From the sequence record NZ_CP118102.1: 64,000 nucleotides of DNA; one strand, 5' to 3'. How positions within the stretch are numbered: the first letter of the stretch is position 1; every line of letters begins with the position of its first letter. The notes under the pieces are model-generated. The model was not told where the DNA came from, did no database searches, and saw only the letters and a list, made by a program, of their open reading frames with translations. The position numbers were made by a program, and so were the translations under genes. Origin of the DNA: a plasmid. Positions 29,736 through 43,972 of this stretch are shown one piece after another.

Positions 29736-29771
29736 AGAATGCGCGCGGCTGGACGAAAAGGAAAGAGGGGC

Positions 29772-29784
29772 TGGGACAGCCCCC
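29772..29784 (+). repeat. TGGGACAGCCCCC, first of two 13-bp direct repeats (second at 30269-30281) bracketing a repeat-rich convergent intergenic region; part of the GNAT terminator hairpin GGGGCTG-gga-CAGCCCC
   Basis: Exact 13-mer present twice, 497 bp apart. Confidence 0.5.
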
Positions 29785-29888
29785 AACCCCTTAAATACGA
29801 GGGATGTTGTCAGGTTAATCTAAATTCGCGAGGTTGTAGGAGCAAATGTTCGCAATCGAACGACTCGGAATCGCATAGGACGATGGGA

Positions 29889-30063
29889 TAACGTTATGGG
29901 TTTCGGACGTTGACGGTTGAATGAAGGTTAGCGTTATGGCGTAACGTTATTTCATGGGTTCAGGACGAGATCGGGGGACAAATGGGGAAATAACGTTATG
30001 CCGTCGCTCTATTGGCCGCTAGCCTGGCCCGCGTCGGGCATTTAACGTTACGCCGTAACGTTA
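29889..30063. repeat. cluster of five TAACGTTA palindromes within a degenerate duplicated unit, followed by a CAC/CAT-rich tract (30070-30130)
   Basis: TAACGTTA at 29889, 29942, 29991, 30043 and 30056. Flanking ...ATGGGTTTCGGACG / ...ATGGGTTCAGGACG similarity indicates a duplicated unit. Confidence 0.6.
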
Positions 30064-30286
30064 TGCGATTACCGCCATCACCACGACCACCATCGCGACC
30101 ATCACCAACGACCACCATCGTCACGATCACGACGTCTACCCAACGGCAGTTGTTCCCCGCGAGCCAGGTTCCCGCCCACCCAACCTTGTGCAAAGGGATG
30201 GCGGTGTCGCGAAGCGTTGTTCCTGGCTGTATGCGTTGCTCCCTCTCTGGGGCTTAATCTGACCACATTGGGACAGCCCCCTCATC

Positions 30287-31330
30287 TTAACGGACGTAGA
30301 TGCCTCTTGCGTATTGTACGGGCGGTTCGGCTTTTCTGGCGACGGTCATAATCGCGTGAAGCGCCCAATAAGGATCGTTCAGCATACCCCGCCCGACGGC
30401 GACCAGTTCGGCGTCTCCGTTGCCCAAAGCGGCCTCGGCCAAGTGCGGCTGGTCCAAATTGCCGACGGCGATGATCGGCACGTTCAGCGCTTCCTTGAAG
30501 GCGCGCGCGAACGGAAGCTGATAGCCGGGATGATTGGCGGGCTTGCGGCTGCCCGGAGGCGCTTCGCCGCCGCTGGATACGTCGAACATATCGACGCCGG
30601 CGTCCTTGTAGCGCTTCGCGATCCGCAGCGCATGCGCGAGGTCGTAGCCGCCGTCCATGTATTCGACCGCGGACATGCGCATGATGAGCGGCATGTCCGC
30701 AGGCATGACGCTGCGCGCGGCCTGCACGATTTCCTCGCCGAAGCGAGCCGGATCGCGTCCGTATTCGTCGGAGCGATTGTTGATGCCCGGGGAATGGAAC
30801 TGGTGGATCAAGTAGCCGTGCGCGCCGTGCAGCTCGATCGTGTCGAAGCCGGCCTCGACGGCGCGGCGGACGGCGTCCCGGAACTTCCCGACCATCGTCC
30901 GGACTTCCTCGGCGCCCAGCGCCCGCGGACGCCGGGAGACCGGGTCTCCGTTCGCGCCCGGAACCGGGATATCCGACGCTCCGACGGGCGTCGGCGCATC
31001 CTCCGCTTTGCGTCCTGCGTGCGCGATCTGGATGCCGATTTTCGCCCCGTATTTATGTACCTCATCGACGATTCTCGCGAAGGCGGGAATTTGCTCGTCC
31101 GACCAGAGCCCCAAGTCGCGGTCGGTTATTCTTCCGTCCGGCTCCACGTCGGTCATCTCCACAATGATCAGTCCCGCGCCGCCTATCGCCCGGGAGACGT
31201 AATGAACGAAATGCCAATCGTTCGGCTTGCCGTCGTTCGTCTCGACGGAGTATTGGCACATGGGCGGCATGACGATGCGGTTTTTCAAGGCGAGCCCTTT
31301 CAGGGAAAAGGGGGAGTCTAGATGGGTCAT
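30287..31330 (-). CDS. namA: NADPH-dependent flavin oxidoreductase, old yellow enzyme (YqjM/NamA type)
   Basis: MTHLDSPFSLKGLALKNRIVMPPMCQY...HFVHYVSRAIGGAGLIIVEMT...IGIQIAHAGRKA is the classic YqjM pattern. Confidence 0.85.
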   Translation of the reverse strand: MTHLDSPFSLKGLALKNRIVMPPMCQYSVETNDGKPNDWHFVHYVSRAIGGAGLIIVEMTDVEPDGRITDRDLGLWSDEQIPAFARIVDEVHKYGAKIGIQIAHAGRKAEDAPTPVGASDIPVPGANGDPVSRRPRALGAEEVRTMVGKFRDAVRRAVEAGFDTIELHGAHGYLIHQFHSPGINNRSDEYGRDPARFGEEIVQAARSVMPADMPLIMRMSAVEYMDGGYDLAHALRIAKRYKDAGVDMFDVSSGGEAPPGSRKPANHPGYQLPFARAFKEALNVPIIAVGNLDQPHLAEAALGNGDAELVAVGRGMLNDPYWALHAIMTVARKAEPPVQYARGIYVR

Positions 31331-31401
31331 CGCTGATCTCTCCTCAGTCTATATAGATTGAACCAATGAAACGGGAAGTTCAACCTATATAGTTAATGGT
31401 G

Positions 31402-32298
31402 TTAAATTTCTTTCGTATTGGCGTTCTCCGGACTTGTTGTCTTGGACGCGCCCCGGTCCAGCGTCTTGCGAATCGCGGTTTCGATCCAGCGCCAGGGCAG
31501 AAAACGGACGGCGGTCACCAGCAAACGGGCGCCTCGCCCGATCGGATGCCTTAGCTTGCGCGTTCGGCCGGAGGCTGCCAGCCGGGCGACCAGCTCGGCG
31601 ACTTCCCGCGGATGCGGGGCGGATTCGGCCGATTTGCGGGCGAAGCCCAGCACGGAGTTAAGCATTTTCCCGTAAGGGGAGTCGGGCTTGGCGTGGATCG
31701 CAGCGAAACCTTTGTCCCAGATCGGCGTACGATAGGCTCCGGGCTCCACGAGGTACACCCGGATGCCGTAGGGCGCAACCTCGAGCCGCAGACTCTCGCT
31801 GAAGCCTTCGACCGCGAACTTGGAGGCGGCGTATGCTCCGTAGCCGGGCAAGCCGATCCGCCCGCTGACGCTGCCGATCTGGATGACCGTTCCTTCGCGC
31901 TGCCGGCGCATGATGGGCAGAACGGCCTGCGTCGCAGCGACGACGCCGATGAAGTTCGTCTCCATCTGCGCTCTCCACGCTTCCAGCGGCACTTCTTCGG
32001 AGAACCCGCCGACGGCGTAGCCGGCATTATTCACGAGCGCGTCGATCCGGCCGTAGCGTTCCATAATATGCGCGACGGCCGCTTCAATCGATACGGGGTC
32101 GGTAACGTCAAGTCGGACGACCTCCAGCCTGTCGCCGACGCCGAGCCTGTCCGCTTCCTGCATGAGCGGTTCCCGGCGATCCGGATCGCGCATCGTGGCC
32201 ACGACCCGGTACCCGCCGCGGGCCAAGGCGGTGGAGATCAAAAGGCCGAAGCCGCTGGAGGCTCCGGTTACGAGGGCGATTCGCTCAACGGTCGACAT
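31402..32298 (-). CDS. SDR-family short-chain dehydrogenase/reductase
   Basis: TGASSGFG cofactor motif. NNAG. Catalytic YAASK. Confidence 0.8.
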   Translation of the reverse strand: MSTVERIALVTGASSGFGLLISTALARGGYRVVATMRDPDRREPLMQEADRLGVGDRLEVVRLDVTDPVSIEAAVAHIMERYGRIDALVNNAGYAVGGFSEEVPLEAWRAQMETNFIGVVAATQAVLPIMRRQREGTVIQIGSVSGRIGLPGYGAYAASKFAVEGFSESLRLEVAPYGIRVYLVEPGAYRTPIWDKGFAAIHAKPDSPYGKMLNSVLGFARKSAESAPHPREVAELVARLAASGRTRKLRHPIGRGARLLVTAVRFLPWRWIETAIRKTLDRGASKTTSPENANTKEI

Positions 32299-32428
32299 GG
32301 GTCAACCTCCTTCTGCTGCTCGAATGATATGGAACTGCTGTTCGTTTGTACCGTCTCTCCCAGTGTACCACGTTTTGCTCCTTGGGGCTTGCCGCCCGGG
32401 GAGGGAGAGAAGCAAGGCAATTTCTGCG

Positions 32429-33583
32429 CTACAGCTTGTGCTTTCTCAGCAGCGGTACGCCGATGCGATTCAGCAGCTTGCCGAGCGTCGCCCAAGGCAT
32501 GCGGCGCTTCAGCGGCAGATGCCGCACGTAAACCGCAGAAAATTCGATCTCCGCCTCGGCGCCCCGATTGCGCTTGAACTGGGCCGCGCCGGAGCTTTCG
32601 TGCAGCAGAAATCCGCGCTCGCCTGCCAATTCGATGAGCCGGGCGGACAGCATCCGGTACAAGCCGAGCTCCTGCGGCAGCGAAGTGTCGTAGCCGAACA
32701 AAGGCGTCGTCATCACGCCGTCCCTGGCGTAGAAGCCGAGCGCCGCGTCAAGCCTTCCGTTGCGGCGAAATCCGTGCAGCTCCAATATGCGGTTATCGAG
32801 CGCCTCCTCCAGAAAACGTTCCGTGAACTGCGGATTGTGCCAGGAGTACTTATCGAGATACAGCAGACGATACAACTCCGCGATGCGGGGGAGATCCTGC
32901 CGGGTTACGTCGCCGGGGCCGACGGTCTCGTAGCCTTCCTTGGCAGCCAGCGTGCCGTCCCGCTTCAGCAGCCAGCGGGATTTGGCGTTGCCGAAGCCGG
33001 CATCGCCGGTTCTCAGCAAGTAAATTTGTCTGCTCGGGACGAGCAGGCAGCCCTTGGAACGAAAGAGGTCCAGCATGGGCGCATTGAGAGACGGATTAAG
33101 CGAGCGAAAAGCGATCGCATGCCCGGGGAAGCGGGCGACCAGCTTGTCCAGCACGGCGTCCCATTGCGCGGCGTTCAGCTCCGGGTACAGATTGGTCGAC
33201 AGCAGCCAGTTGTTGACGTGCACGACCCGGTTAAAGCCGCTGAGCTTCAGCAGGCGGCCGATTCCGGACAGAAGCGCGTCCAGTCCGGCAATCAGCGCGC
33301 GGTTGCCCAGCAAGTTAAGCTCCTGTTTCGCGTAGCTGACATAGTGGGTGTACGGGGAGCAGACGTAGCTGTTGTCGTACTCCTCTTCATTCACGGTGAT
33401 CGGAAGCGGAATCCCGTCCGCCGTCAGCACGAGGATCCGGGTACGGACGTTCCGTACGAACCGCTCTGAACCTTCCTGCAGAAGAGGCAGCAAATACCGC
33501 TTGGCATAGCGTCCGTATTCGTTGTCGGGCCACTCGAGTTCGCTCGCGTCGGCCGCTTCGTACAGCTCGACTCGGGACTTCAA
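32429..33583 (-). CDS. hypothetical protein, candidate acyltransferase (GNAT-like/FemAB-BioF2-type fold); last gene of the 6-gene coupled operon
   Basis: 384 aa. 4-nt overlap with the upstream ligase gene. No canonical motif identified by eye. Assignment is by context and size only. Confidence 0.4.
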   Translation of the reverse strand: MKSRVELYEAADASELEWPDNEYGRYAKRYLLPLLQEGSERFVRNVRTRILVLTADGIPLPITVNEEEYDNSYVCSPYTHYVSYAKQELNLLGNRALIAGLDALLSGIGRLLKLSGFNRVVHVNNWLLSTNLYPELNAAQWDAVLDKLVARFPGHAIAFRSLNPSLNAPMLDLFRSKGCLLVPSRQIYLLRTGDAGFGNAKSRWLLKRDGTLAAKEGYETVGPGDVTRQDLPRIAELYRLLYLDKYSWHNPQFTERFLEEALDNRILELHGFRRNGRLDAALGFYARDGVMTTPLFGYDTSLPQELGLYRMLSARLIELAGERGFLLHESSGAAQFKRNRGAEAEIEFSAVYVRHLPLKRRMPWATLGKLLNRIGVPLLRKHKL

Positions 33584-34908
33584 AGCTTGTATCTCCTTTC
33601 GACGCGCCTCAGCTTCGCGATGCCGGCTTCATGCGAGTAGGCGGAGAAGACGATTCGCGGCGTACGGCAGCGAAGGCGGCCGCACAACGCTGCGATTGCC
33701 GCGCGAACCCGCTCTTCGGCCATGTCCCGCTCCGCCTCCGGCAGCTCAAGCTCGACCGTCCATTCGTCCAGTCCCGTCTGGATCGCCCGGTATTGCGCGA
33801 TAGCGGGAGAAGCGCCGATAATCGCGCGCGTGACGAAGTCCGGGTAGATCGTGACCAGCGCTTCGTCTTCGTCAACTCTGCTACCCGTCGCATAGAAAAT
33901 ATCGTCGCAGCGGCCTTCGATCCGCTCGATGGCCGTAAACGGGGAGCCGCACGGGCAGGGCTGCTCGCTCTCGGTCAGCAGATCGTTGAGCCGGTAGCGG
34001 ACGATCGGCTGAGTCGTGCGGGAGAAGTCGGTCACGATCGGCACGAACGTGCGGTCTTTGCCGGGTACGTACTCTTTTTCGATATAGACGAGATCCTCAT
34101 TCAGATGCAGCGTGCCATAGGGGCAGGTGCAGCCGAGAAACCCTTCCGTGCATTGATAGATTTGGTGGACGGTCTGGCCGAACGCCTCCTCGATGTATTC
34201 CCGGTCAAGCGGGTCCAGCGCCTCGGCGACGGAGATGATCCGCTTGGGCTTCGTTAGCAGGTTGCCGGAGCGGGCGGCTTCGGCAAGGCGGCGCAGCACG
34301 GAGGGAGGGGCGGCAATGACGTCGGGCCGCTGGCGTTCAAGCCGCTTAAGCTGATCGGGCAGCGGATCGAGCAGGTCGTAAAATGCGAACGACAGCCGCC
34401 TGCCGCGCACCGATTCGTACAGATTGCTGTTCGCCCTCAGGAAGAAGGCGATCGAACAGCGGGAGAGGAGGGAGCCGGGCAGCATTTTGCCAAGCACCGC
34501 GCCCGCCCAGCCGGCCCGCTCCCGTCTGTCGACGAGAAACAGTCCGCGATTGCCGGACGTGCCGGAAGACAGGCCGATCGTCACGTTCCCGATGGCGGGC
34601 TTGAAGTCGCGCGACGCTTCGGCCGCCTCGGCCACCGCGAAGGCTTGCGCTTTTGCGATGCCTGCCGTATTGAGGCTGTCGAAGTGGGCCATCATCACCG
34701 ACTTGTCGATCGTCGGGAAGGAGCGCCACTGCTCCGACGGGATAGAGCCCCACCATTCCCGGTAAAAGGCAGAACGCTCGCGGACTTGCGAGACGTGCCG
34801 GACGACGAGCCGTTCCAGTTTCTTTTCGAACGCTTGGCGATTCGTAGTTCCGCCTCGTTTTCTTCCGCTTCTGTAGTGCTTGATAAAAGCAAGGGCGTCC
34901 CGAATCAT
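33580..34908 (-). CDS. adenylate-forming enzyme, coenzyme F390 synthetase / phenylacetate-CoA ligase-like (acyl-AMP ligase)
   Basis: AMP-binding P-loop IGLSSGTSGNRG. Start MIRDALAF after GGGAGG RBS with ATGA overlap to the MBL gene stop. The track ORF starts at 34953. Confidence 0.7.
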   Translation of the reverse strand: MIRDALAFIKHYRSGRKRGGTTNRQAFEKKLERLVVRHVSQVRERSAFYREWWGSIPSEQWRSFPTIDKSVMMAHFDSLNTAGIAKAQAFAVAEAAEASRDFKPAIGNVTIGLSSGTSGNRGLFLVDRRERAGWAGAVLGKMLPGSLLSRCSIAFFLRANSNLYESVRGRRLSFAFYDLLDPLPDQLKRLERQRPDVIAAPPSVLRRLAEAARSGNLLTKPKRIISVAEALDPLDREYIEEAFGQTVHQIYQCTEGFLGCTCPYGTLHLNEDLVYIEKEYVPGKDRTFVPIVTDFSRTTQPIVRYRLNDLLTESEQPCPCGSPFTAIERIEGRCDDIFYATGSRVDEDEALVTIYPDFVTRAIIGASPAIAQYRAIQTGLDEWTVELELPEAERDMAEERVRAAIAALCGRLRCRTPRIVFSAYSHEAGIAKLRRVERRYKL

Positions 34909-35770
34909 AAGCGTCTTACCTCCCGGCTGTCGATATCGTAGAACTCCCTGCAATGGCTCGGCACGACGATCAGATCAGGATCGGACGCTTGCCAGCTTCG
35001 CAGCCTGCGGAACGAGTCGCGGTACGCCGCGCGGTCGTGCATGACCAGCCCTGCCGCCGGATGGGGCGGTCGGTTGTCGCGAAGCGCCTGGCTCGACCAC
35101 GAGGCGTCGGCGCAGAGCAGCACGCGCGAGCGGGATGTGGACAGCAGCAGGCCGATCTGGCCAGCCGCGTGTCCCGGCATGGCGATCGCGATCAGGCTGC
35201 CGTCGCCGAGCAGATCGTAGCCTCCGTCGAACGGAATGCTGTCCGGCAGGGAGACTCGCTTGGCCAGCGTTTCGATCGGCTGCGCGGTTTCGGCGAAGCG
35301 ATCGGGCAGCAGTCCGGCGACGAAGCCCGCACGGGTGGCCCGGAAAGGGCCGAGGCGTCGAACGGCGTCGTAGGCTGCCTGCGGGTACAGGAAGCGCGAG
35401 GACGGGAAGTCCCGCGCGCCTCCGATATGGTCGGCGTGGAAGTGCGAGAGAATGACACTGCGGACGTCCTCCGCGGCAATGCCGAGCCGGGCGAGCTGCC
35501 GGACGGCGGTGTTATCCTCATGCAAAATGACGGGCGTGAGTCGGCGGTACAGCGAATAGGGAAAAGAACCGGTCAGCTCGCGAAATCGCGGAGAGTAGCC
35601 GGTATCGAACAAAATCCAGCCCTGCGAAGGGTGGCGAATGCAGGCGAAGCCGGCCGGATAGGCGGCCGAACGCAGCGAGCCGCCCCGCAGCGTCACGAAT
35701 TCGGGATGCAGGCAATAACCGGCGGACAGGAGCAAAAGCTCGACCTGGACGGGATGCTCTCGGTTCATGA
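34905..35770 (-). CDS. MBL-fold metallo-hydrolase
   Basis: HFHADHIGG metal-binding motif. Start MNREHPVQVE with ATGA overlap to the epimerase stop. The track start is 35954. Confidence 0.7.
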
Positions 35771-36763
35771 CGGGTTGCTCCTCCACCAGTCCGCGAATCG
35801 GCGCAAGCCCTCGTCGAGCGGGATTCGCGGTTCGTAGTTCAGCGCTTGGCGCGCTTGGGCCAGATCGAGCGTCTGGCTGTAGGCCAGCAGGCCGACCGTA
35901 TACCGAGTAAAAGGCGGCTCCGCGCCAATCGCCGGGAACGCTCTGTACAGCCACTCCATTGCGCGTCCCGCGGCAAGCGCGGCAGGCCGGGAGACGCGCC
36001 GGGTGCGCAGCGGCAGCTCCAGCAGGGCGAACAGCCGCCGCAGCAGGTCGATCAGCTTGACGGGCTCACCGTTCGACAGATTGTAGATCGCGCCCGCGGC
36101 GCTTTCCGGCGCGTTGCATGCCTGAACGAGCCCGTCGACCGCGTTGTCGACATAGGTCAGATCGAGCAGCGCCTCGCCTCCGCCGATAAGCGGAATGCCG
36201 CGCGAATCGTTCACCCGCAGCAGCCGAGGGAACAACGACGTATCTCCAGGGCCGAATACGGCTCTTGGCCGCACGATGATCGAAGACAATCCGTTGCCGG
36301 CCGCATCCGCGACGACCCGTTCCGCCATCAGTTTGGTGGCGGCGTAGGCGTTCACAGGCTTGCGAGGCAGCTCCTCTTGCTCGGAAACGAGCAGCCGATC
36401 TCTGTAATTGAAGTAAACGCTTGGCGTGGACACATGGACCAGTCTGCGCGCTCCGTGACGAAAGCAGCCGGAGACGACATGCTCCGTGCCGCCGACGTTG
36501 GTCTCATAGAAGTCTCGGTAGGCTCCCCACGGAGAAGACAGCGCCGCGCAGTGAATGACGTAGTCGCGTCCGGCGCAGGCGTCTTCAATCTGCTGCCGGT
36601 TGCGCAAATCCGCCTGAAGGAAGGGGATACCCTGAGCGGCCAGCTGGCGGCCGATTTTCTCGTCGCGTCCTAGCCCCGTCACGTCCCATCCCAGATCGCG
36701 CAAGCGAACGGCCGTCGCTCGGCCCAGAAATCCCGTTGCTCCCGTTACCAATACTTTTGTCAT
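35765..36763 (-). CDS. NAD-dependent epimerase/dehydratase (extended SDR)
   Basis: VLVTGATGFLGRATAVRL Rossmann motif. YxxxK region YAATK. Confidence 0.8.
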   Translation of the reverse strand: MTKVLVTGATGFLGRATAVRLRDLGWDVTGLGRDEKIGRQLAAQGIPFLQADLRNRQQIEDACAGRDYVIHCAALSSPWGAYRDFYETNVGGTEHVVSGCFRHGARRLVHVSTPSVYFNYRDRLLVSEQEELPRKPVNAYAATKLMAERVVADAAGNGLSSIIVRPRAVFGPGDTSLFPRLLRVNDSRGIPLIGGGEALLDLTYVDNAVDGLVQACNAPESAAGAIYNLSNGEPVKLIDLLRRLFALLELPLRTRRVSRPAALAAGRAMEWLYRAFPAIGAEPPFTRYTVGLLAYSQTLDLAQARQALNYEPRIPLDEGLRRFADWWRSNPS

Positions 36764-38004
36764 CGTTCACCATTCCATTCGATATCCGAGGTAGACGCTT
36801 CTTGAAGCGTCAGGCGTTGCCGGGCGGCCGTTCGGCGCGTCCAGGCGAGCAGCCGAAACTGTTCCGCAAAAGGCTTCGGGTCTTCCCGGCGATACACGAC
36901 GTCACGGCTGCCTCGCCAAGCGCGCAGCCATTCGCCGAGCGTTCGTTCGCGGACGGCCTGGACGAGCCCGTAGCTCAGCATCGCGGCCGAGAGCATCGCG
37001 CCTTGTCTTGATTGTGCGGCAGGAGAGGCGATTCGCCCGGCCGCCAGAAGAGCGGCAGGACACAGCAGCGCCTCCGCCAGCCGGCCGTCCGATCCGAACA
37101 GATGCACTCCGCTCGTCGCCCTCGGATTGCATTCCATCGGCAGGACGGCGCCTTCCGGCGAGATCATGAAATCGAAGGCGATCTGCCCGGTAAAGCCGAT
37201 TCCCGCGACGAAGCGCCGGACCCAATCGAACAGCTGCGGCTGGCTGGCCGGCTCGTAATGGATGCTGGCGCCCCGGCCGGCGCGAAAACGGCTGCGGTAT
37301 GCGGCGTGAGCCGCGATCCGGCCCTCGTGCGCTACGCTGTAGGTGCACCATTCTTCGCCGCGCAGCAGCTCCTGGACGATCCAGGGCCGACGGTCAGACA
37401 CGCCGGCCTCGGCCAGCTTGCGCGCGATTTCCTTACGGCGGGAGTCCGGCAAGGGAGTGCGGCGCAAATCGAGCAGCAGCGTGCGCGAAGCGAATCGCGA
37501 ATAGGCCGGCTTGAGCGCGATGCCTTCGGCGAAGCGGGGGCTGTCCAGCAGCAGCAGCTGCCAGCCGTCCGGCGTGTCCAGCGTCACCGTGTCCGGGACG
37601 GGAAGTCCGAGGCGCGCCGCGGTTTCTATAAATTTGCCTTTGTGGTGGAGAGAGTCCAGTTCCGCCAGAGGCGCCGCCAGTACGCGGCAAACGCCCTCGA
37701 ATCGGTCGAGCTCCTTGGAAATGTGGAAAATCTCCTCGCAAGTTGGAATCAGCGCGTCGATGCGGTGTTGTTCGGCAATCGCGCACAGTGCCGCGGCGTA
37801 TTTCTCCGAATTTTCGGAGGGCGGGGGGACATGGAAGCTTCGTTCGACGGAACGGGATACCCGGCACAGGTGATAGGGCGCGGATTCGGCCGCGTAAACC
37901 CGATGGCCGGCGGCGCGGAACAGGCGGGCCAGCTCCAACGCTGCCGGAGAGCGGCCTCCTGTAAGGAGAACGCGCTGCGGCTCCGTTTCCGGCTCAATAG
38001 TCAA
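36760..38004 (-). CDS. ATP-grasp domain protein (carboxylate-amine/thiol ligase type)
   Basis: 414 aa. N-terminal Rossmann-like VLLTGGRSPAALELARLFRAAGHRVYAAE. Central ATP-grasp-like region. 4-nt overlap with the epimerase gene. Assignment from general pattern only. Confidence 0.55.
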   Translation of the reverse strand: MTIEPETEPQRVLLTGGRSPAALELARLFRAAGHRVYAAESAPYHLCRVSRSVERSFHVPPPSENSEKYAAALCAIAEQHRIDALIPTCEEIFHISKELDRFEGVCRVLAAPLAELDSLHHKGKFIETAARLGLPVPDTVTLDTPDGWQLLLLDSPRFAEGIALKPAYSRFASRTLLLDLRRTPLPDSRRKEIARKLAEAGVSDRRPWIVQELLRGEEWCTYSVAHEGRIAAHAAYRSRFRAGRGASIHYEPASQPQLFDWVRRFVAGIGFTGQIAFDFMISPEGAVLPMECNPRATSGVHLFGSDGRLAEALLCPAALLAAGRIASPAAQSRQGAMLSAAMLSYGLVQAVRERTLGEWLRAWRGSRDVVYRREDPKPFAEQFRLLAWTRRTAARQRLTLQEASTSDIEWNGER

Positions 38005-38995
38005 GGATCAGCCCTCCCAGCGTCAGTCCCGCCGCCGTTCCGATCAGCAGCACGCGGTCCCCCCGCTCGATCCGTCCCGTCCGGATCGCTTCATGAAGGC
38101 CCATCGGGAGGGAGGCGGCGATCGTATTGCCGTGGTTCGGCGTAATATAGACAAGCTGGCGCTCGGCTATGCCCAGCTTCTTGCGCATGAGGCGAACGGC
38201 CATCGCGCTGCCTTGGTGGGGGATGACCGCTTTAAGGTCCGACATGACCGTTCCCGCCGATTGCAGCAGCTCCTCTGTGAAGTCGGGCAGCAGGCGAGAA
38301 GCCATCTTGTAGATGGCCGGACCGTCCATCGAGAACAGATAGTCGTCCGCGGCGGCGGGACGATAGCCGTTCGGGTGACGCCTGGTGCCGCCCGCGCGAA
38401 TCTCGGAGAAGGCGGCTCCGGCGCTGTAGGTGCGCATGGAGGCGCCGACGATGGCGGACGGCTCGCCGTCCTCCGCCGGACCGAGGACAACGGCGGCTGC
38501 TCCGTCCCCGAACAGCGCGGCGCTTTCCTTGTGCCGCCAATCGAGGCCGACGGAAGCGATCTCGGACGTGACGATCAGCACGTAGCGGTATCTTCCGGCC
38601 GCGATCATGCAGGACATGGCGTCAAGCGCCGCCAGGAAGCTGAGACAGGTGGAATCAATATCAAAGGCGGGGACGCCGGACTGCTCCATCCCCAACTCGC
38701 GTTGAATGAATACGGCGGAGCAGGGGAGAGCTTGCTCCTTGGTGCCGCTTGCGCCGACGAGGCAATCCATGTCGGTGAACTTCAGGTTGGCGGCTTGAAG
38801 GGCGGCTTGGGCGGCTTTCGCGCCCATGGCGGATGCGGTGTCGTCTTCTCCGGCGTAGTGCCGGGAGACGATGTCCGTCACCCTGCGCGTCCAGCCCCGG
38901 GAAACGCCGAGGCGATCGTCCATCTCCAGATCGGAGATCGGGCGGCCGGGCAAGTATTTGCCCGTTCCGTATATTTTGACTTTGCGAATGTTCAT
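37994..38995 (-). CDS. 3-oxoacyl-ACP synthase III (FabH/KASIII-like) condensing enzyme
   Basis: Active-site Cys context DIDSTCLSF. His/Asn region. GGGAAGGAG RBS. Typical 333-aa KASIII length. Overlaps the ATP-grasp start by 11 nt. Confidence 0.8.
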   Translation of the reverse strand: MNIRKVKIYGTGKYLPGRPISDLEMDDRLGVSRGWTRRVTDIVSRHYAGEDDTASAMGAKAAQAALQAANLKFTDMDCLVGASGTKEQALPCSAVFIQRELGMEQSGVPAFDIDSTCLSFLAALDAMSCMIAAGRYRYVLIVTSEIASVGLDWRHKESAALFGDGAAAVVLGPAEDGEPSAIVGASMRTYSAGAAFSEIRAGGTRRHPNGYRPAAADDYLFSMDGPAIYKMASRLLPDFTEELLQSAGTVMSDLKAVIPHQGSAMAVRLMRKKLGIAERQLVYITPNHGNTIAASLPMGLHEAIRTGRIERGDRVLLIGTAAGLTLGGLILDY

Positions 38996-39210
38996 AGAGA
39001 GATCTCCTTCCCGCGCATCGTTCCCGCAAGTTCATTGTGCCGGAAAGAGGACGGACCGAATAGTACCAATTTCGCCTGGTACCTCCGTTATTCGACTGCA
39101 AACATACATGTTCGACAGAAGTCGCGCAGGTTCCTGTCGCCGGATCGGGACACGCCAAATAACCCGAACCGATTGCGGTCCGGGCTAGGCACGCCCTAAT
39201 GGATGCGACC

Positions 39211-39726
39211 TTATTGCTCCGCTTTGACGATGCTTTTGCCGAACAGATACAGAACGCCGACCCCTCCGAACATAAGAGCAAGCAGGAAATAGAAGTAAAA
39301 CACGCGCGCCACCTCCCGGAATTGGATTAGGAAATCGAACACCCCAACTGTAAGCCAGACTGGAGGAGCTGTGACCACCCAATTGCGAGAAAATGCGGCC
39401 AGCCAAAAAGCTTGGTAACGACTGGCGTTGGGGAACAGGGAAAGAGACAGAGGCAGGGCGGCGTAATGACAGGGGCACAGGCGAGCCTTGTGCGACGGGT
39501 CAGGAGGGCGGATGATAAGCTCGCGTGGCGGTACTGTTGGGGGAGGCGGGTCAGGCGGTCGGACAATAAGCTCGCGTGGCGGTACTGTTGGGGGAGGCGG
39601 GTCAGGCGGGCGGATGATAAGCTCGCGAGGCGGTACTGTGGAGGGCGACGGGACAGGCGGTCGGACAATAAGCTCGCGTGGCGGTACTGTTGGGGGAGGC
39701 GGGTCAGGCGGGCGGATGATAAGCAC
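39211..39726 (-). CDS. proline-rich 17-aa repeat protein (PPDPPPPTVPPRELIIR x5) with a C-terminal TM segment; possibly a truncated or pseudogenised longer repeat protein
   Basis: Minus-strand frame gives P-rich repeats and a hydrophobic tail FYFYFLLALMFGGVGVLYLF. Upstream repeat copies carry the GTCAGA variant that creates in-frame TGA. Two plus-strand frames are also open across the array, so the coding status is uncertain. Confidence 0.3.
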   Translation of the reverse strand: MLIIRPPDPPPPTVPPRELIVRPPVPSPSTVPPRELIIRPPDPPPPTVPPRELIVRPPDPPPPTVPPRELIIRPPDPSHKARLCPCHYAALPLSLSLFPNASRYQAFWLAAFSRNWVVTAPPVWLTVGVFDFLIQFREVARVFYFYFLLALMFGGVGVLYLFGKSIVKAEQ

Positions 39727-39965
39727 GCGTGGCGGTACTGTTGGGGGCGGCAGGTCAGGCAGTCAGACGATAAGCACGCGTGGCGGTACTGTGGAGGGCG
39801 GCGGGTCAGGCGGTCGGACGATAAGCACGCGTGGCGGTACTGTTGGGGGCGGCGGGTCAGGCGGTCAGACGATAAGCACGCGTGGCGGTACTGTTGGGGG
39901 CGGCAGGTCAGGCAGTCAGACGATAAGCTCGCGTGGAGGTACTGTTGGGGGCGGCGGTTTGTGTT
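39490..39965. repeat. 51-bp tandem repeat x9 (GC-rich; unit about GGCGGTCGGACAATAAGCTCGCGTGGCGGTACTGTTGGGGGAGGCGGGTCA)
   Basis: The ATAAG anchor recurs at 39515, 39566, 39617, 39668, 39719, 39770, 39821, 39872 and 39923, exactly 51 bp apart. Two sequence variants (CGGACAATAAGCTCGCG and CAGACGATAAGCACGCG). Confidence 0.9.
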
Positions 39966-40068
39966 GTGCAGGATGCTCCGTGTGGAGCATCCTGCAGTGG
40001 AGTTGGAGCCATTAGTTGAGTGTCGGGAACGATCCGACGTTGCCGTCCAATGGGTTTCGGGGAGCGAA

Positions 40069-41460
40069 TCAGCCGCGGACGAACCGTTCGAAGAGGGAGC
40101 CGGCGGCCAGCACTAGTTCGTCGTCGCCGCGACGCCCTGTGAGCTGCAGGCCGATCGGCAGTCCTTCCGAGGAGAGGCCGGCAGGCAGCGACAGCGCCGG
40201 GAGCCCCCACAGGTTGGCAAGCGGAGTGAACTCGCCGTTGGCGGGTCCGCCCGGCTTGCCTGCCGGGATCGGGCCGGCGGTGACCGGACAGGTGGGGGAG
40301 ACGAGTACGTCGATCTCTTCGAACAAACTGTCAACCAACGAGCGATGGGAATCCCTCCAGCTCAGGCAGACGTCATAGTCGCTCGTCGTAATGGCGCGTC
40401 CCGCCTCCAAGCTGTTCCGCATCCGTTCGCTGTAACCTTTCGCCCAATCCGTCAGCTTTTCTGTATGTGTCCGATATGCCTCGTAATGCAAAATCGTCCA
40501 CGTTTTTTCCTTCACCTCGGAGATTGGAAGCTCTGTGTTCAACCGCTTGACGCGGAAGCCGGCCTTCTCCATCGTCTGGACTACGCCAAGGATCGCATCG
40601 CGAATTTCGGGCTCTGCCTCCGCATCCAAATAGTCGGTCGCTACGCCGATTGTCAGCGGCTTCTCAGTCGCGCGAGCCCTGATGCCGGGTTGCTCCACTT
40701 CCACGTTCAGTCGCATCCGATTCTCCGCAGATTCCTCCATAAGACGCGTTCCTTTTTCATCCGAACGCTCCGCAAGAACGTTAAACAGCAAGGAGACGTC
40801 TTCGCAAGTGCGTGCCAACACGCCTGCATGATCCAGCGACGGCGCCAGCGGCGTAATGCCGTCCAGGCTGAGGCGCCCCGCGGACGGCTTGAATCCGGCG
40901 ACACCGCAGAAGCTGGCCGGCACCCGGACGGAGCCGGCTGAGTCGGTGCCGATCGAGCCGAGGGCGAAACCGGCGGCGATCCCCGCGGCGGAGCCGGAGC
41001 TGGAGCCGCCGGGCAGTCGGCCGGGCCGCAGCGGATTAAGCGTCCAGCCGAAGGCCGGGTGAGGCCGGCCGTAAGCGAACTCGTACAAATGCGCCTTGCC
41101 GATGATGACTGAGCCGGCCTCCAACAGCTTGGCGACGACGCGTGCATGCGCTTCTGGAACCGGCACGGGAGATCGGCCCGAGCCGTTCGTCAGCGGCACT
41201 CCCGCATAAGCGATCATATCTTTGACGGATACCGGGATGCCGTGCAGCGGTCCGCGGTCGCGGCCGTCCCGCAGCTCGCGCTCGGCCTGCGCGGCCTGTG
41301 CCCGAGCTTCGTCCTCCATCAGATGAAGGAAGGAGCGATACCGGTCGTCTTCGTTTCGTATTCGCTGCAGAAGCGATTCCAGCAGTTGGACGGGAGAGAG
41401 CTCTCCGCTGCGGAAGGCCCGTCCTGCCGCCGCGATCGTCCATTGGTCGTTTCGGGGCAT
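40069..41460 (-). CDS. amidase-signature family amidase (GatA-like)
   Basis: GPLHGIPVSVKDMIAYAGVPLTNGS contains the Ser-cisSer-Lys triad lysine and GGSSGG-like motif GGSSSGSAAGIAAG. Confidence 0.8.
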   Translation of the reverse strand: MPRNDQWTIAAAGRAFRSGELSPVQLLESLLQRIRNEDDRYRSFLHLMEDEARAQAAQAERELRDGRDRGPLHGIPVSVKDMIAYAGVPLTNGSGRSPVPVPEAHARVVAKLLEAGSVIIGKAHLYEFAYGRPHPAFGWTLNPLRPGRLPGGSSSGSAAGIAAGFALGSIGTDSAGSVRVPASFCGVAGFKPSAGRLSLDGITPLAPSLDHAGVLARTCEDVSLLFNVLAERSDEKGTRLMEESAENRMRLNVEVEQPGIRARATEKPLTIGVATDYLDAEAEPEIRDAILGVVQTMEKAGFRVKRLNTELPISEVKEKTWTILHYEAYRTHTEKLTDWAKGYSERMRNSLEAGRAITTSDYDVCLSWRDSHRSLVDSLFEEIDVLVSPTCPVTAGPIPAGKPGGPANGEFTPLANLWGLPALSLPAGLSSEGLPIGLQLTGRRGDDELVLAAGSLFERFVRG

Positions 41461-41891
41461 GTCTCATTCCTCCATGTGTTAAGCATATACGAAATCAGAG
41501 TTGCGAGGTTGGGATAAAATTGGAGCAGATTGCGAAAACGGCGTGTGCATTGGCGACGACTGACCGAAAGGGATGACGACCAACGGCATTGACAGCGGCC
41601 GACATACGGAAGGGCGACAGACCAAGGTGTTCGAGGCGGCGGACGTAAGCAACTGCCGGCGATTGCGGTGAAAAAGATAACGGCTTGCGAAGGTATATAA
41701 CGAGATTGCGACGAACGTTTATCCGACTTTACAACTTGGATAACTCATACTATGATAGCGTCAAGCGCCGGTTAGGTGCAAGGTTATCGCGTCTTCGCGC
41801 TTAGTCTTGAACAAGAGGAGCGAGACTTCAGAATCCCGATATAACAAAATGAAGCGCAATTCAATACAAATCCCGATTCGGAGGCGGTCAT

Positions 41892-43728: not shown

Positions 43729-43972
43729 CGACGGGAGAAGGCGAACCAGCCGGAGCGCAGGAGGAGAACCGCCCCGCGCCGGTTGATTCGTCATGCCCGA
43801 AAACGGCCGTACGTCGCGTCCTGGAGGGGCGCTGTGCCATCCGGCAAACGGATCAGACGCCGGGCTATCGGTCAGACGGAATGAACGACAGGAGGCTGCG
43901 CGATCCGGAGGAAAAGTCCGAAACGGCGGCAAGTCAGGCCTCATACCCGCTCTACAAGGAGGAATAAGTCAG

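What the first reader, a model, noticed from the sequence alone, without database searches (positions are those of the whole stretch)
32429..38995. Tightly coupled six-gene operon (KASIII-like, ATP-grasp, NAD-epimerase, MBL hydrolase, F390-synthetase-like acyl-AMP ligase, acyltransferase-like): uncharacterised acyl/aminoacyl small-molecule or envelope-modification pathway
Every junction is an overlap (11 nt, 4 nt, ATGA, ATGA, 4 nt), which implies stoichiometric co-expression. The combination has three parts:
- a FabH-type condensing enzyme and an adenylating F390-synthetase/PaaK-like ligase;
- an ATP-grasp ligase and a FemAB/GNAT-like transferase candidate;
- an MBL-fold hydrolase and a sugar-nucleotide-type epimerase.

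Taken together this suggests assembly of an acylated and amidated metabolite or a lipid/amino-acid-decorated polymer. Similar gene sets accompany exopolysaccharide-modification loci in other phyla. An amidase and an SDR/OYE pair flank it. A palindromic AACAT-gt-ATGTT lies in the promoter region (about 39105).
Basis: partly seen in the sequence, partly recalled or inferred. Interest (0 to 1): 0.65.

Follow-up and report, generated by a model that had tools for sequence, protein, structure and literature searches.

The report
Conserved operon for an unknown lipid
Six tightly overlapping genes form a real, uncharacterised biosynthetic operon, built on a four-gene core found in many bacterial phyla (including about 12% of complete E. 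coli genomes), that most likely joins two fatty chains into a hydroxy-acid lipid and adds amino acids to it.

Summary
Six minus-strand genes (32429-38995) overlap by 11, 4, 4, 4 and 4 nt, and each has its own ribosome-binding site.

The gene set is strongly syntenic. The order KAS3, ATP-grasp, reductase, MBL hydrolase, ligase (then GNAT, then SDR) recurs in 80 fetched genomes from Bacillota, Cyanobacteria, Chlamydiota, Bdellovibrionota, Lentisphaerota and Proteobacteria.

Better family assignments:
- The "KASIII" is closest to the chain-fusing ketosynthases CorB/MxnB, not FabH.
- The "epimerase" is closest to OleD, a 2-alkyl-3-oxoalkanoate reductase.
- The ligase is TIGR02304.
- The "acyltransferase" folds as a tandem GNAT, like aminoacyl-tRNA-dependent lipid and peptide aminoacyl transferases.

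A four-gene core (KS, reductase, MBL, ligase) pairs with interchangeable partner modules:
- ATP-grasp plus tandem GNAT (this window);
- GT21 plus GT1 glycosyltransferases;
- PAP2 plus desaturases (674 of 5426 complete E. coli genomes);
- a sulfotransferase (Rhodobacterales plasmids).

Best reading: a two-chain beta-hydroxy-acid lipid scaffold whose head group is amino-acylated here. The product is inferred, not shown. No paper describing the cassette was found.

The promoter palindrome is at chance level and is not conserved. The operon lies in a 40-kb Cohnella-derived high-GC island, bracketed by Tn3-family remnants, inside low-GC mobile DNA of a Paenibacillus urinalis-like genome.

The parts
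37994..38995 (-). KAS3: CorB/MxnB-like KASIII-fold ketosynthase (PRK07204 family). First gene of the operon.
   Evidence: NCBIfam PRK07204 scores 424.9 (cut-off 402); the FabH models fall below their cut-offs. Best solved relatives are CorB 4yuc and MxnB 4v2p at 242 bits and about 45% identity, against 183 bits or less for FabH. CorB itself scores best on PRK07204. Cys117/His260/Asn290 are invariant in 73 homologues, and the CorB-V94 position is Ile or Leu.
36760..38004 (-). ATP-grasp enzyme (PRK06849-like), predicted carboxylate-amine ligase. Overlaps the KAS3 stop by 11 nt.
   Evidence: PRK06849 scores 364 bits (cut-off 406). The AF2 model has pLDDT 92.8. Foldseek matches L-amino-acid ligases, PylC, PurK and biotin carboxylase at E about 1e-15. 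K165, E291-x-N293 and R295 are conserved. Present in 65 of 80 loci.
35765..36763 (-). Extended-SDR NAD(P)-dependent reductase, OleD-like (predicted beta-keto to beta-hydroxy reduction).
   Evidence: Pfam Epimerase and 3Beta_HSD. Best NCBIfam match is OleD 2-alkyl-3-oxoalkanoate reductase at 241 bits (cut-off 580); HpnA 122, GalE 64. Same ranking in Chlamydiota, Bdellovibrionota, Bacillus and Enterococcus homologues. TGxxGxxG, S112, Y140 and K144 are conserved. Best PDB match is sterol-4-alpha-carboxylate 3-dehydrogenase.
34905..35768 (-). MBL-fold dinuclear-metal hydrolase, lactonase-like (predicted lactone or thioester hydrolysis that frees a carboxylate).
   Evidence: Lactamase_B 75.7 bits. 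Best NCBIfam and PDB relatives are AHL lactonases and 4-pyridoxolactonase, all far below cut-off. HxHxDH, H200, D221 and H272 are conserved; W224 sits where AiiA has Tyr. A natural MBL-ligase fusion exists, P0147.
33580..34908 (-). F390-synthetase-related adenylate-forming enzyme (TIGR02304, PaaK-like).
   Evidence: TIGR02304 scores 489.7 (cut-off 251.9). PDB relatives are PaaK, AjiA1 and NatL2-type PaaK-like ligases. The P-loop SSGTSG, TEG and K432 are conserved, plus C262, H268, C318 and C320. The family has 531 clusters at 50% identity with E<=1e-30.
32429..33583 (-). Tandem-GNAT (dupGNAT) transferase. The fold is that of aminoacyl-tRNA-dependent aminoacyl transferases.
   Evidence: Acetyltransf_6 scores 23.8 bits. 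The AF2 model has pLDDT 91.6. Best Foldseek PDB matches are A-PGS, L-PGS and the MprF synthase domain, Sbb17/Sba18 aa-tRNA-dependent peptide synthases and FemX (E about 1e-9, TM 0.45-0.68). It stays next to the ligase even where the cluster is split or reduced to ligase plus GNAT (L070).
31402..32298 (-). Classical SDR (PRK06914 family). Frequent seventh gene, 130 nt downstream with its own RBS.
   Evidence: PRK06914 scores 362 (cut-off 320). It follows the cassette in 30 of 80 loci, including loci that lack the GNAT. No terminator-like site lies in the 130-nt gap.
38996..39210 (-). Upstream leader and promoter region. Contains a CACAAT -10-like box at 39034-39039 and the 12-nt palindrome at 39101-39112.
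   Evidence: Sequence read. A TACAAT/CACAAT box 40-55 nt upstream of the start recurs in Cohnella and Paenibacillus loci, whereas the palindrome does not. There are 84 equivalent palindromes in the window. No Rfam family matches.
14320..54425 (.). 40.1-kb high-GC block of Cohnella origin that carries the operon.
   Evidence: GC is 53-66% against 35-45% in the flanks. It is 98-99% identical to Cohnella sp. CIP 111063 / SGD-V74. The host chromosome outside the block is 46-50% GC.
12495..14319 (-). Tn3-family transposon remnant: 5' part of a Ser/Thr/Asn-repeat protein gene, at the left edge of the inserted block.
   Evidence: It is contiguous with 55509 downwards in L094-L097, where the full transposon also has a tyrosine recombinase and a Tn3 transposase.
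54426..55509 (-). Tn3-family transposon remnant: 3' part of the repeat-protein gene, a 114-aa gene and the terminal segment, at the right edge of the block.

Best explanation
This is a self-contained, horizontally mobile biosynthetic operon for an amphiphilic lipid or lipid-like metabolite. It consists of a four-gene scaffold core plus a head-group module.

**Core steps (inferred)**
1. The CorB/MxnB-like ketosynthase joins two fatty-acyl thioesters drawn from host fatty-acid metabolism. It has the Cys-His-Asn triad and no Glu base, so the nucleophile is probably a beta-ketoacyl thioester. The product would be a branched 2-substituted 3-oxo-acyl product or its lactone.
2. The OleD-like reductase converts the 3-oxo group to a 3-hydroxyl.
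3. The MBL hydrolase opens the thioester or lactone and exposes a free carboxylate.
4. The TIGR02304 enzyme adenylates that carboxylate for transfer to an acceptor.

**Head-group module in this window (inferred)**
- The ATP-grasp ligase (acyl-phosphate chemistry) and the tandem-GNAT transferase (aminoacyl-tRNA-type fold) attach one or more amino acids. The result would be a lipo-amino-acid or aminolipid.
- The downstream SDR is an optional tailoring reductase.

**Shown**
- The gene set, its coupling and its cross-phylum synteny.
- The family and fold assignments, and intact catalytic motifs.
- The modular exchange of partner genes.

**Inferred**
- Substrates, order of steps and the product.
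For: **Coupling and synteny**
- Overlapping genes, each with its own RBS.
- Conserved order in 80 genomes of at least 6 phyla. At least 586 species-level genomes carry the ligase.
- The six-gene set is retained even when split into two convergent units in a gammaproteobacterium.

**Two independent pointers to 2-alkyl-3-oxo chemistry**
- The ketosynthase is closest to the chain-fusing enzymes CorB/MxnB. CorB's own best family is this cassette's PRK07204.
- The reductase's best family is OleD in all phyla tested.
- The ketosynthase position equivalent to OleA E117 / PpyS E105 / CorB V94 is Ile or Leu (mechanism from PMC4578411, PMC5724707, PMC5506619).

**MBL then ligase**
- The two are adjacent everywhere, and a natural MBL-ligase fusion exists.
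- ANL motifs and the dinuclear metal site are intact.

**Amino-acid addition**
- The tandem-GNAT fold is nearest to aminoacyl-phosphatidylglycerol synthases, Sbb17/Sba18 and FemX.
- The ATP-grasp is nearest to L-amino-acid ligases and PylC.

**Lipid nature and modularity**
- Sister cassettes replace the ATP-grasp and GNAT with membrane GT21 (HpnI-like) plus GT1 glycosyltransferases.
- In E. coli the partners are PAP2, a sterol-desaturase-family protein and an acyl-CoA desaturase.
- In Rhodobacterales the partner is a sulfotransferase.
- One locus abuts ACP and biotin-carboxylase genes.
Against: - No product, substrate or phenotype is known. No paper was found in 10 searches.
- All family matches to characterised enzymes other than TIGR02304 and PRK07204 fall below curated cut-offs: OleD 241 of 580, AttM 80 of 390.
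- CorB/MxnB act on carrier-protein-bound polyketide chains inside PKS clusters. No carrier protein or PKS is conserved here.
- One ketosynthase motif (HGNTxAAS around Asn290) looks FabH-like. An ordinary decarboxylative condensation with malonyl-ACP is therefore not excluded.
- The tandem-GNAT fold is also used by acyl-CoA-dependent enzymes (N-myristoyltransferase and a clavulanate tandem GNAT appear lower), so use of tRNA is unproven.
- The ATP-grasp fold search cannot separate ligases from carboxylases.
- All six proteins lack predicted transmembrane segments and no exporter is conserved, so a soluble metabolite is possible.
Confidence: 0.45

Rival explanations
1. Straight-chain variant. KAS3 works like FabH, by decarboxylative condensation of an acyl-CoA with malonyl-ACP. 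The reductase and MBL then give a free 3-hydroxy fatty acid. The ligase, ATP-grasp and GNAT convert that acid into an N-acyl amino-acid lipid of the ornithine-lipid or lipid-654 type.
For: - The Cys-His-Asn triad and a FabH-like HGNTxAAS motif are present. The FabH subfamily model scores 238 bits, just under its cut-off of 249.
- One locus sits next to ACP and acc genes.
- The amide-forming enzymes fit this model equally well.
Against: - The ketosynthase is clearly closer to CorB/MxnB than to any solved FabH (242 against 183 bits or less). It shares CorB's CLSF, HQxS and GTxxG motifs.
- The reductase is OleD-like rather than FabG-like.
- Cells already make 3-hydroxyacyl-ACP, so a dedicated ketosynthase, reductase and hydrolase would be redundant.
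Confidence: 0.2
2. Diffusible lactone or pyrone signal or antibiotic. KAS3 makes a dialkyl alpha-pyrone, as PpyS, CorB and MxnB do. The reductase and the lactonase-like MBL remodel or open the ring. The ligase, ATP-grasp and GNAT derivatise it into a small secreted molecule.
For: - The closest characterised ketosynthases make alpha-pyrones (PMC5724707, PMC5506619).
- The MBL's nearest characterised relatives are all lactonases.
- A LysE-type exporter (faint hit) sits next to one cassette, and an ABC exporter lies inside another.
Against: - No receptor or regulator and no exporter is conserved with the cassette.
- The partner modules in sister cassettes are typical of membrane lipids: membrane GT21, PAP2, desaturases.
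- The lactonase-specific Tyr is replaced by Trp.
Confidence: 0.12
3. Non-orthologous analogue of OleABCD or of lipstatin-type pathways. The proposed equivalences are KAS3 = OleA, the reductase = OleD, the ligase = OleC-like beta-lactone synthetase, and the MBL = OleB-like beta-lactone-opening or decarboxylating enzyme. The product would be a beta-lactone lipid or an olefin. The amino-acid enzymes would play the role of the lipstatin NRPS.
For: - The reductase is OleD-like.
- The ketosynthase is of the head-to-head type.
- An MBL-ligase fusion parallels OleB-OleC fusions known in Actinobacteria (from my own knowledge).
- Lipstatin couples an Ole-like core to an amino-acid ester (from my own knowledge).
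Against: - No OleA, OleB or OleC family member is present. The ligase is PaaK-like, and no member of that group is known to form beta-lactones.
- An olefin would offer no handle for glycosyl-, sulfo-, phospho- or aminoacyl-transferases.
Confidence: 0.1
4. Modification of a polymer (exopolysaccharide, teichoic acid or peptidoglycan) rather than synthesis of a free lipid, as the first reader also suggested.
For: - Acetyltransf_6 and FemAB-like proteins, and PaaK-like ligases, occur in EPS loci (from my own knowledge).
- FemX-type enzymes act on peptidoglycan precursors.
Against: - No polysaccharide polymerase, flippase, priming transferase or cell-wall gene is conserved next to the cassette in 80 loci.
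- The core enzymes are of fatty-acid type.
Confidence: 0.05

Closest known systems
CorB / MxnB chain-interconnecting ketosynthases (corallopyronin, myxopyronin)
   Same: - KASIII fold and Cys-His-Asn triad.
- About 45% identity. These are the best solved relatives.
- Shared CLSF, HQxS and GTxxG motifs, and an aliphatic residue at the V94 position.
- CorB's best NCBIfam family is this cassette's PRK07204.
   Different: - CorB and MxnB sit in trans-AT PKS clusters and take carrier-protein-bound beta-ketoacyl chains. No PKS or dedicated carrier protein accompanies the gene here.
- The pyrone product is unproven.
OleABCD olefin / beta-lactone pathway (and lipstatin or nocardiolactone variants)
   Same: - The logic is the same: condensing enzyme, then NAD(P)H reductase, then ATP-dependent carboxylate activation, plus a hydrolase.
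- The reductase is a true OleD relative and OleD is its best family hit.
   Different: - OleA, OleB and OleC are replaced by members of other families: a CorB-like ketosynthase, an MBL fold and a PaaK-like ligase.
- The OleD score is 241 against a cut-off of 580.
- The partner genes imply a functionalised, head-group-bearing product rather than a hydrocarbon.
Aminoacyl-phosphatidylglycerol synthases (MprF C-domain), FemX, and tRNA-dependent peptide synthases Sbb17/Sba18
   Same: The predicted tandem-GNAT fold of the 384-aa protein matches these best (E about 1e-9).
   Different: - No sequence-level membership: only Acetyltransf_6 at 23.8 bits.
- It is a soluble stand-alone protein.
- The donor (aa-tRNA or acyl-CoA) and the acceptor are unknown.
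NRPS-independent amide assembly such as dapdiamide (ANL ligase plus ATP-grasp ligase)
   Same: An adenylating ligase and an ATP-grasp ligase are combined to build amide bonds without an NRPS (from my own knowledge; folds).
   Different: The acyl unit here is made by a dedicated ketosynthase, reductase and hydrolase. A tandem GNAT is added.
PqsABCDE alkylquinolone pathway
   Same: It combines a CoA ligase, FabH-like condensing enzymes and an MBL-fold thioesterase, PqsE (from my own knowledge). PqsD appears among the weaker ketosynthase hits.
   Different: - There are no anthranilate genes.
- The MBL shows no PqsE-like match and the ligase belongs to a different clade.
- A reductase, an ATP-grasp and a GNAT are present here.

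Membership tests
Housekeeping FabH (beta-ketoacyl-ACP synthase III) | Score above the curated cut-off of the FabH models (TIGR00747, PRK09352). | tested here: not met
   TIGR00747 scores 223.6 against 292.1. PRK09352 scores 238.2 against 249.
Housekeeping FabH (beta-ketoacyl-ACP synthase III) | Cys-His-Asn catalytic triad. | tested here: met
   C117, H260 and N290 are invariant in 73 homologues. This feature is shared with CorB/MxnB, so it does not discriminate.
PRK07204 KASIII family (cassette ketosynthase) | Score above the curated cut-off. | tested here: met
   424.9 against 402. The B. cereus-group cassette homologue scores 639.
CorB/MxnB chain-fusing ketosynthases | Closest sequence relationship, and an aliphatic residue in place of the OleA/PpyS Glu base. 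| tested here: met
   242 bits to 4yuc and 4v2p, against 183 or less for FabH. The V94-equivalent position is Ile or Leu in all 72 cassette homologues aligned.
CorB/MxnB chain-fusing ketosynthases | Non-decarboxylative fusion of two beta-ketoacyl thioesters to an alpha-pyrone. | not testable with these tools
   This needs an enzyme assay.
CorB/MxnB chain-fusing ketosynthases | Embedded in a PKS cluster with carrier proteins. | tested here: not met
   No PKS or PP-binding gene is conserved in 80 loci. An ACP appears in one locus only.
OleABCD pathway | OleD 2-alkyl-3-oxoalkanoate reductase (equivalog cut-off 580). | tested here: not met
   It is the best hit but scores only 241 bits, and 220-240 in other phyla.
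OleABCD pathway | OleA thiolase, OleB alpha/beta-hydrolase and OleC beta-lactone synthetase all present. | tested here: not met
   No such family hits were found. A CorB-like ketosynthase, an MBL fold and a PaaK-like TIGR02304 enzyme are present instead.
TIGR02304 F390-synthetase-related adenylate-forming enzymes | Score above the cut-off, and ANL adenylation motifs. | tested here: met
   489.7 against 251.9. SSGTSG, TEG, GRxDD and K432 are conserved.
Coenzyme F390 synthetase / phenylacetate-CoA ligase proper | Equivalog score. | tested here: not met
   F390_ftsA scores 21.7 against 458.7. PaaK scores 23.1 against 646.3.
Aminoacyl-tRNA-dependent tandem-GNAT transferases (FemXAB, aaPGS, Sbb17) | Tandem-GNAT fold. 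| tested here: met
   Model pLDDT is 91.6. The top Foldseek hits are 4v35, 5vrv, 4v36, 9wqx and 4ii9, with E from 1e-9 to 1e-7.
Aminoacyl-tRNA-dependent tandem-GNAT transferases (FemXAB, aaPGS, Sbb17) | Use of aminoacyl-tRNA as donor. | not testable with these tools
   Acyl-CoA-using tandem GNATs (NMT, the clavulanate GNAT) also match, more weakly.
AHL / MBL-fold lactonases | HxHxDH~H~D~H metal site. | tested here: met
   H109, H111, D113, H114, H200, D221 and H272 are conserved.
AHL / MBL-fold lactonases | Equivalog score and the catalytic Tyr (AiiA Y194). | tested here: not met
   AttM scores 79.6 against 390. The position three residues after D221 is a conserved Trp (the AiiA numbering is from my own knowledge).
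   GalE scores 64 against 262. dTDP-glucose dehydratase scores 68 against 365.
ATP-grasp carboxylate-amine ligases | ATP-grasp fold with Lys and the E-x-N Mg ligands. | tested here: met
   The distinction between ligase and carboxylase is inconclusive.
Exopolysaccharide-modification locus | Co-location with polysaccharide synthesis or export genes. | tested here: not met
   None is conserved among the neighbours. The window's neighbours are an amidase, an AraC regulator, oxidoreductases, a peptidase and a P450.

The most novel reading that the evidence does not exclude
The four-gene core is a previously unrecognised route to two-chain (2-substituted 3-hydroxy-acid) lipids or beta-lactones that does not depend on Ole or Pks13. 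The core consists of a CorB-like ketosynthase, an OleD-like reductase, an MBL hydrolase and a TIGR02304 adenylating enzyme.

It is spread by horizontal transfer across at least eight phyla, including B2 ExPEC E. coli, the B. cereus group, Chlamydiota, Legionellales-like bacteria and Bdellovibrionota.

Interchangeable partner modules (amino-acylating, glycosylating, phosphoryl/desaturating, sulfating) would turn one scaffold into a new family of bacterial membrane lipids.
Probability: 0.3. Interest if true: 0.85.

Novelty: new variant of a known kind. Interest (0 to 1): 0.68.

Why it matters
- **Scale of the gap.** The cassette or its four-gene core is present in hundreds of species: at least 586 of the 185,579 species-level genomes scanned, and 531 clusters at 50% identity for the ligase family. 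It is also in 674 of 5426 complete E. coli genomes (ExPEC lineages such as ST131), and in B. cereus-group, chlamydial and predatory bacteria. Public annotation still says only 'beta-ketoacyl-ACP synthase III', 'hypothetical protein', 'adenylate cyclase' or 'F390 synthetase-related protein'.
- **What a product would explain.** Identifying the product would assign function to several orphan families at once: PRK07204, PRK06849, TIGR02304 and an Acetyltransf_6 clade. It could also reveal a new class of envelope lipids or signals relevant to membrane biology, host interaction and antibiotic tolerance.
- **A testable design.** The modular architecture gives a clean experiment: express the core alone, then the core with each partner module.
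- **Evidence of transfer.** The window documents recent inter-genus transfer of the cassette on a 40-kb island bracketed by transposon remnants.

Tried and rejected
1. **Literature.** Ten full-text searches found no description of the cassette. Terms included F390 synthetase, TIGR02304, PRK06849, PRK07204, COG3919, enzyme combinations, bacterial ceramide genes and the E. coli variant. Iyer et al. 2009 on ATP-grasp amidoligases is not held.
2. **Bacterial ceramide pathway (Spt, bCerS, CerR).** I considered it because of the GNAT, the epimerase-fold reductase, GT21 and PAP2. No Spt/AOS gene is present and the reductase is OleD-like. I could not compare with bCerS because no sequence was available, so this is left as an analogy only.
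3. **RNA elements in the leader.** No Rfam family and no tRNA were found anywhere in the window.
4. **The palindrome as an operator.** Rejected: it is at chance frequency and is not conserved.
5. **The 171-aa ORF running through the 51-bp repeats (39211-39726).** Some repeat units carry stop codons in that frame, so it is probably not coding.
6. **The PAP2_3-ligase fusion P0125 as strong evidence.** It is a single metagenomic gene call. A separate PAP2 gene directly after the ligase in E. coli gives independent support.
7. **My first reading of the low-GC flanks as islands in a high-GC genome.** This was reversed: the high-GC block is the insert.
8. **Exact-protein look-ups.** Two failed, probably because of start-codon differences.
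9. **Separating ligase from carboxylase for the ATP-grasp by fold.** Inconclusive.

Full report
**1. Observation**

The region holds six co-directional minus-strand genes:
- KAS3, 37994-38995
- ATP-grasp, 36760-38004
- extended-SDR reductase, 35765-36763
- MBL hydrolase, 34905-35768
- F390-synthetase-related ligase, 33580-34908
- GNAT-like protein, 32429-33583

These come from the ORF lists. Public gene calls on identical DNA give the same boundaries (CP118108.1, an ENA contig and several Logan contigs).

The junctions overlap by 11 nt, then ATGA, ATGA, ATGA, then TTGA. Each start has a GGAGG-type ribosome-binding site. The 457-aa ligase ORF listed mechanically is only the maximal ORF. The ATG at 34908 is the start that gene callers use, and it produces the ATGA overlap.

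A classical SDR (31402-32298) follows after 130 nt with no terminator-like site. The OYE gene behind it has its own 15-bp inverted repeat upstream.

**2. Synteny**

I used an alignment of diverse ligase homologues to scan one genome per species.
The 80 best loci were fetched.
- tblastn with the window proteins shows the order KAS3, ATP-grasp, reductase, MBL, ligase (then GNAT, then SDR) in most of them.
- Counts within 7 kb of the ligase: reductase 76, MBL 76, KAS3 73, ATP-grasp 65, GNAT 48, SDR 30, OYE 3, amidase 1.
- Hosts include Paenibacillaceae, Brevibacillus, the Bacillus cereus group, Metabacillus, Enterococcus, Clostridia, Cyanobacteria and Sericytochromatia. They also include Parachlamydiaceae, Algichlamydia, Bdellovibrionales, Victivallaceae, Alphaproteobacteria, Legionellales and Thiomargarita.
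- A gammaproteobacterial MAG keeps all six genes but as two convergent units: ligase-GNAT facing MBL-reductase-ATP-grasp-KAS3.
- Clustering all neighbouring ORFs found no further conserved partner: no carrier protein, regulator or exporter.

**3. What the six proteins are**

*KAS3*
- It passes the PRK07204 cut-off but not the FabH models.
- Its best solved relatives are CorB and MxnB (242 bits, about 45% identity). The best true FabH reaches 183 bits.
- CorB and MxnB fuse two beta-ketoacyl chains head-to-head into an alpha-pyrone (PMC5506619, PMC5724707).
- CorB itself scores best on PRK07204 (305.7 bits, against 186-194 for the FabH models). A B. cereus-group cassette homologue scores 639 on that model over its full length, so the model matches this cassette's ketosynthase family very closely.
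- The Cys-His-Asn triad is invariant in 73 homologues. The position that carries the catalytic Glu in OleA and PpyS (PMC4578411), and Val94 in CorB, is Ile or Leu.

*Reductase*
- It has the epimerase/3beta-HSD fold. Its best family is OleD 2-alkyl-3-oxoalkanoate reductase at 241 bits (HpnA 122, GalE 64).
- The same ranking holds for homologues from Chlamydiota, Bdellovibrionota, Bacillus and Enterococcus.
- The score is below the equivalog cut-off of 580, so it is an OleD relative, not an OleD.

*MBL*
- It has a complete dinuclear metal site. Its nearest characterised relatives are lactonases, all at low scores.

*Ligase*
- It is a bona fide TIGR02304 member with intact ANL motifs. It also has a conserved Cys/His/Cys/Cys set that may bind a metal.
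- Solved relatives are PaaK and the PaaK-like ligases AjiA1 and NatL2. From my own knowledge, the latter two form ester or amide bonds directly from the adenylate.

*GNAT-like protein*
- The structure was predicted with high confidence (pLDDT 91.6).
- It is a tandem GNAT. Its best structural matches are alanyl- and lysyl-phosphatidylglycerol synthases (MprF synthase domain), the aminoacyl-tRNA-dependent peptide synthases Sbb17/Sba18, and FemX.

*ATP-grasp*
- The model has pLDDT 92.8.
- It matches L-amino-acid ligases, PylC, PurK and biotin carboxylase about equally well.

None of the six has a predicted transmembrane helix, apart from one marginal hydrophobic stretch at the C-terminus of KAS3.

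**4. Modularity**

The most informative result came from variant cassettes.
- **Glycosyltransferase module.** Where the ATP-grasp and GNAT are missing, the core is joined by a membrane GT21 glycosyltransferase (best NCBIfam hit HpnI), a GT1/MGT-type glycosyltransferase and small serine-hydrolase-like proteins. This is seen in Paenibacillus caui, Enterococcus and two MAGs.
- **Other additions.** Two loci add a Rieske oxygenase (best hit the sterol C4-methyl oxidase SdmA), and one of them also an ABC exporter. One locus abuts ACP and biotin-carboxylase genes.
- **E. coli module.** A tblastn of plasmid records led to E. coli. The core four genes (36-43% identical) lie between narI and purU. They are followed by a PAP2 phosphatase, a sterol-desaturase-family protein and an acyl-CoA desaturase. 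The core segment is present in 674 of 5426 complete genomes, including O25b:H4-ST131 and O6:K2:H1 strains.
- **Sulfotransferase module.** In Ketogulonicigenium and Paracoccus plasmids, the bare four-gene core sits next to a divergent TetR regulator and a sulfotransferase.
- **Fusions.** A natural MBL-ligase fusion (P0147) and a single PAP2_3-ligase fusion (P0125) exist.

The unit of function is therefore a four-gene core plus an interchangeable module. Every alternative module is a lipid-type head-group or tailoring enzyme that needs a hydroxyl or an acyl chain.

**5. Mechanism**

Two independent family relationships point to a 2-substituted 3-oxo-acyl intermediate made from two fatty chains: the ketosynthase resembles CorB/MxnB, and the reductase resembles OleD. 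The proposed sequence is:
1. chain fusion by the ketosynthase;
2. ketoreduction by the reductase;
3. hydrolytic release or ring opening by the MBL;
4. adenylation by the ligase, consistent with MBL-ligase adjacency and fusion;
5. amino-acid attachment by the ATP-grasp and the tandem GNAT.

The ligase and GNAT stay adjacent even when the cluster is split, which suggests they act as a pair.

All of this is inference from homology, fold and context. Nothing about substrates or product is shown. My confidence is about 0.45 for this specific scheme. It is much higher (about 0.8) for the general statement that this is a dedicated, modular lipid or lipid-like metabolite pathway.

The rivals are scored in the report sections: a FabH-like straight-chain N-acyl-amino-acid lipid, a pyrone or lactone signal, an Ole-like beta-lactone or olefin analogue, and polymer modification.

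**6. Regulation**
- The palindrome AACATGTATGTT (39101-39112, minus-strand reading) is real. There are 84 perfect 5-2-5 inverted repeats in the window. It is found upstream of the operon only in the same species.
- A CACAAT/TACAAT -10-like box 40-55 nt upstream of the start codon is the only element that recurs among Cohnella and Paenibacillus loci.
- The simple sigma-70 scan found no promoter there. No Rfam family matched.

**7. Genomic context**

The window is a mosaic.
- **Host.** KAS3 is identical to Paenibacillus urinalis WDH85294.1. It shares a 90%-identity cluster with Cohnella proteins.
- **Low-GC flanks.** Positions 1-12494 and 55510-64000 (about 37-39% GC) are contiguous with each other in a 190-kb replicon of P. 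urinalis and in three other assemblies; only 'acg' is missing at the join. This element carries a MerA-like reductase, a DinG-like helicase, Prok-E2/ThiF/PAPS-reductase genes and a tyrosine integrase.
- **Inserted block.** The 43,015-bp insert (12495-55509) has Tn3-family transposon remnants at both ends. These remnants are contiguous with each other, in frame, across 12495|55509 in four other genomes. Topologically, the insert looks like a circular translocatable unit opened inside the transposon.
- **Cohnella origin.** Between the remnants lie 40.1 kb of 53-66% GC DNA, 98-99% identical to Cohnella sp. CIP 111063 / SGD-V74. That chromosome continues beyond window position 14317 with genes absent from the window.
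- **Host composition.** The P. urinalis chromosome outside the block is 46-50% GC.
- **Strain variation.** 48174-54428 is absent from CP118108.1. 28138-49081, which includes the operon, is absent from another assembly.

The operon is thus part of a recently transferred Cohnella island. This fits the patchy cross-phylum distribution of the cassette. I cannot exclude an assembly artefact at the two junctions.

**8. Novelty**

Ten literature searches found no description of this cassette. Databases hold family models for its members (PRK07204, PRK06849, TIGR02304, PRK06914) without any function.

It is not a member of the Ole, FabH, Pqs or ceramide systems (see the membership table). It works most like head-to-head condensation lipid pathways combined with NRPS-independent amide assembly.

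I rate it a new variant of a known kind, with interest 0.68.

Noticed in passing
window 1-12494, 12495-55509, 55510-64000: The window is a mosaic. A 43,015-bp block is inserted into a low-GC mobile element. The block is a 40.1-kb Cohnella-like high-GC segment bracketed by Tn3-family remnants. The element's two halves are contiguous elsewhere, with only 'acg' lost. The block's own ends are contiguous with each other, in frame, in other genomes, so the block behaves like a circular translocatable unit.
   Followed up: yes
window 39492-39957 and 22582-23116: There are two intergenic tandem arrays with unrelated units. One is 51 bp x 9.1, between the amidase and the operon. The other is 50 bp x 10.7, between an ABC ATPase gene and a TetR gene. 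Alignments to other assemblies are offset by whole repeat units, which suggests copy-number differences. The ORF that runs through the 51-bp array has stop codons in some units. Several short public contigs that carry the operon end in or just next to this array.
   Followed up: partly
window 39211-39303 (-): A 30-codon ORF (VFYFYFLLALMFGGVGVLYLFGKSIVKAEQ) with a strong GGGAGGTG ribosome-binding site, about 215 nt upstream of the operon. It may encode a small hydrophobic peptide. Its conservation was not examined.
   Followed up: no
L104 (E. coli NZ_CP141085.1 85456-92337) and 674 of 5426 complete E. coli genomes: A seven-gene variant lies between narI and purU in ExPEC-type E. coli, including ST131 and O6:K2:H1. 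It is the core ketosynthase, reductase, MBL and ligase followed by a PAP2 phosphatase, a sterol-desaturase-family protein and an acyl-CoA desaturase. The gene products carry only generic family names in RefSeq.
   Followed up: partly
L106, L108 (Ketogulonicigenium and Paracoccus plasmids): The bare four-gene core sits next to a divergent TetR regulator and a sulfotransferase on an IncP-type conjugative plasmid and on a 672-kb plasmid.
   Followed up: partly
window 48174-54428: A 6.25-kb segment is present here but absent from P. urinalis CP118108.1. It carries an ABC ATPase, an MFS transporter, a TetR regulator and two ORFs with no Pfam match.
   Followed up: partly
window about 42471-42490: There is an indel of about 99 bp, bounded by a 20-bp repeat, relative to CP118108.1 and Cohnella. 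It lies inside the alpha/beta-hydrolase gene upstream of the AraC regulator. The longest ORF here is 214 aa, against 354 aa in the other genomes.
   Followed up: partly
window 31331-31401: A 15-bp inverted repeat (CTATATAGGTTGAAC ... GTTCAATCTATATAG, 14 of 15 complementary) lies immediately upstream of the OYE/NamA-like gene. This suggests the OYE gene has its own operator and is not part of the operon.
   Followed up: no
window 23263-27109: A TetR regulator and a self-sufficient CYP102-type P450 (P450-flavodoxin-FAD-NAD fusion, 1082 aa) lie in the same island, about 5 kb from the operon. Neither was found next to the cassette in the other fetched genomes.
   Followed up: no
window 55410-60193 and 61966-62913: The low-GC element carries a run of genes: a Prok-E2_D protein, a 466-aa unknown, a ThiF-like protein and a PAPS-reductase-like protein, with a tyrosine integrase nearby. 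It may be a ubiquitin-like or defence system. It also carries a MerA-like reductase at 85-1725.
   Followed up: no
ligase residues C262, H268, C318, C320 (window 33580-34908): Four Cys/His residues are at least 95% conserved across 76 ligase homologues (TCxxGTLH ... PCPCG). They may form a structural metal site. As far as I know this has not been described for PaaK-type ligases.
   Followed up: no
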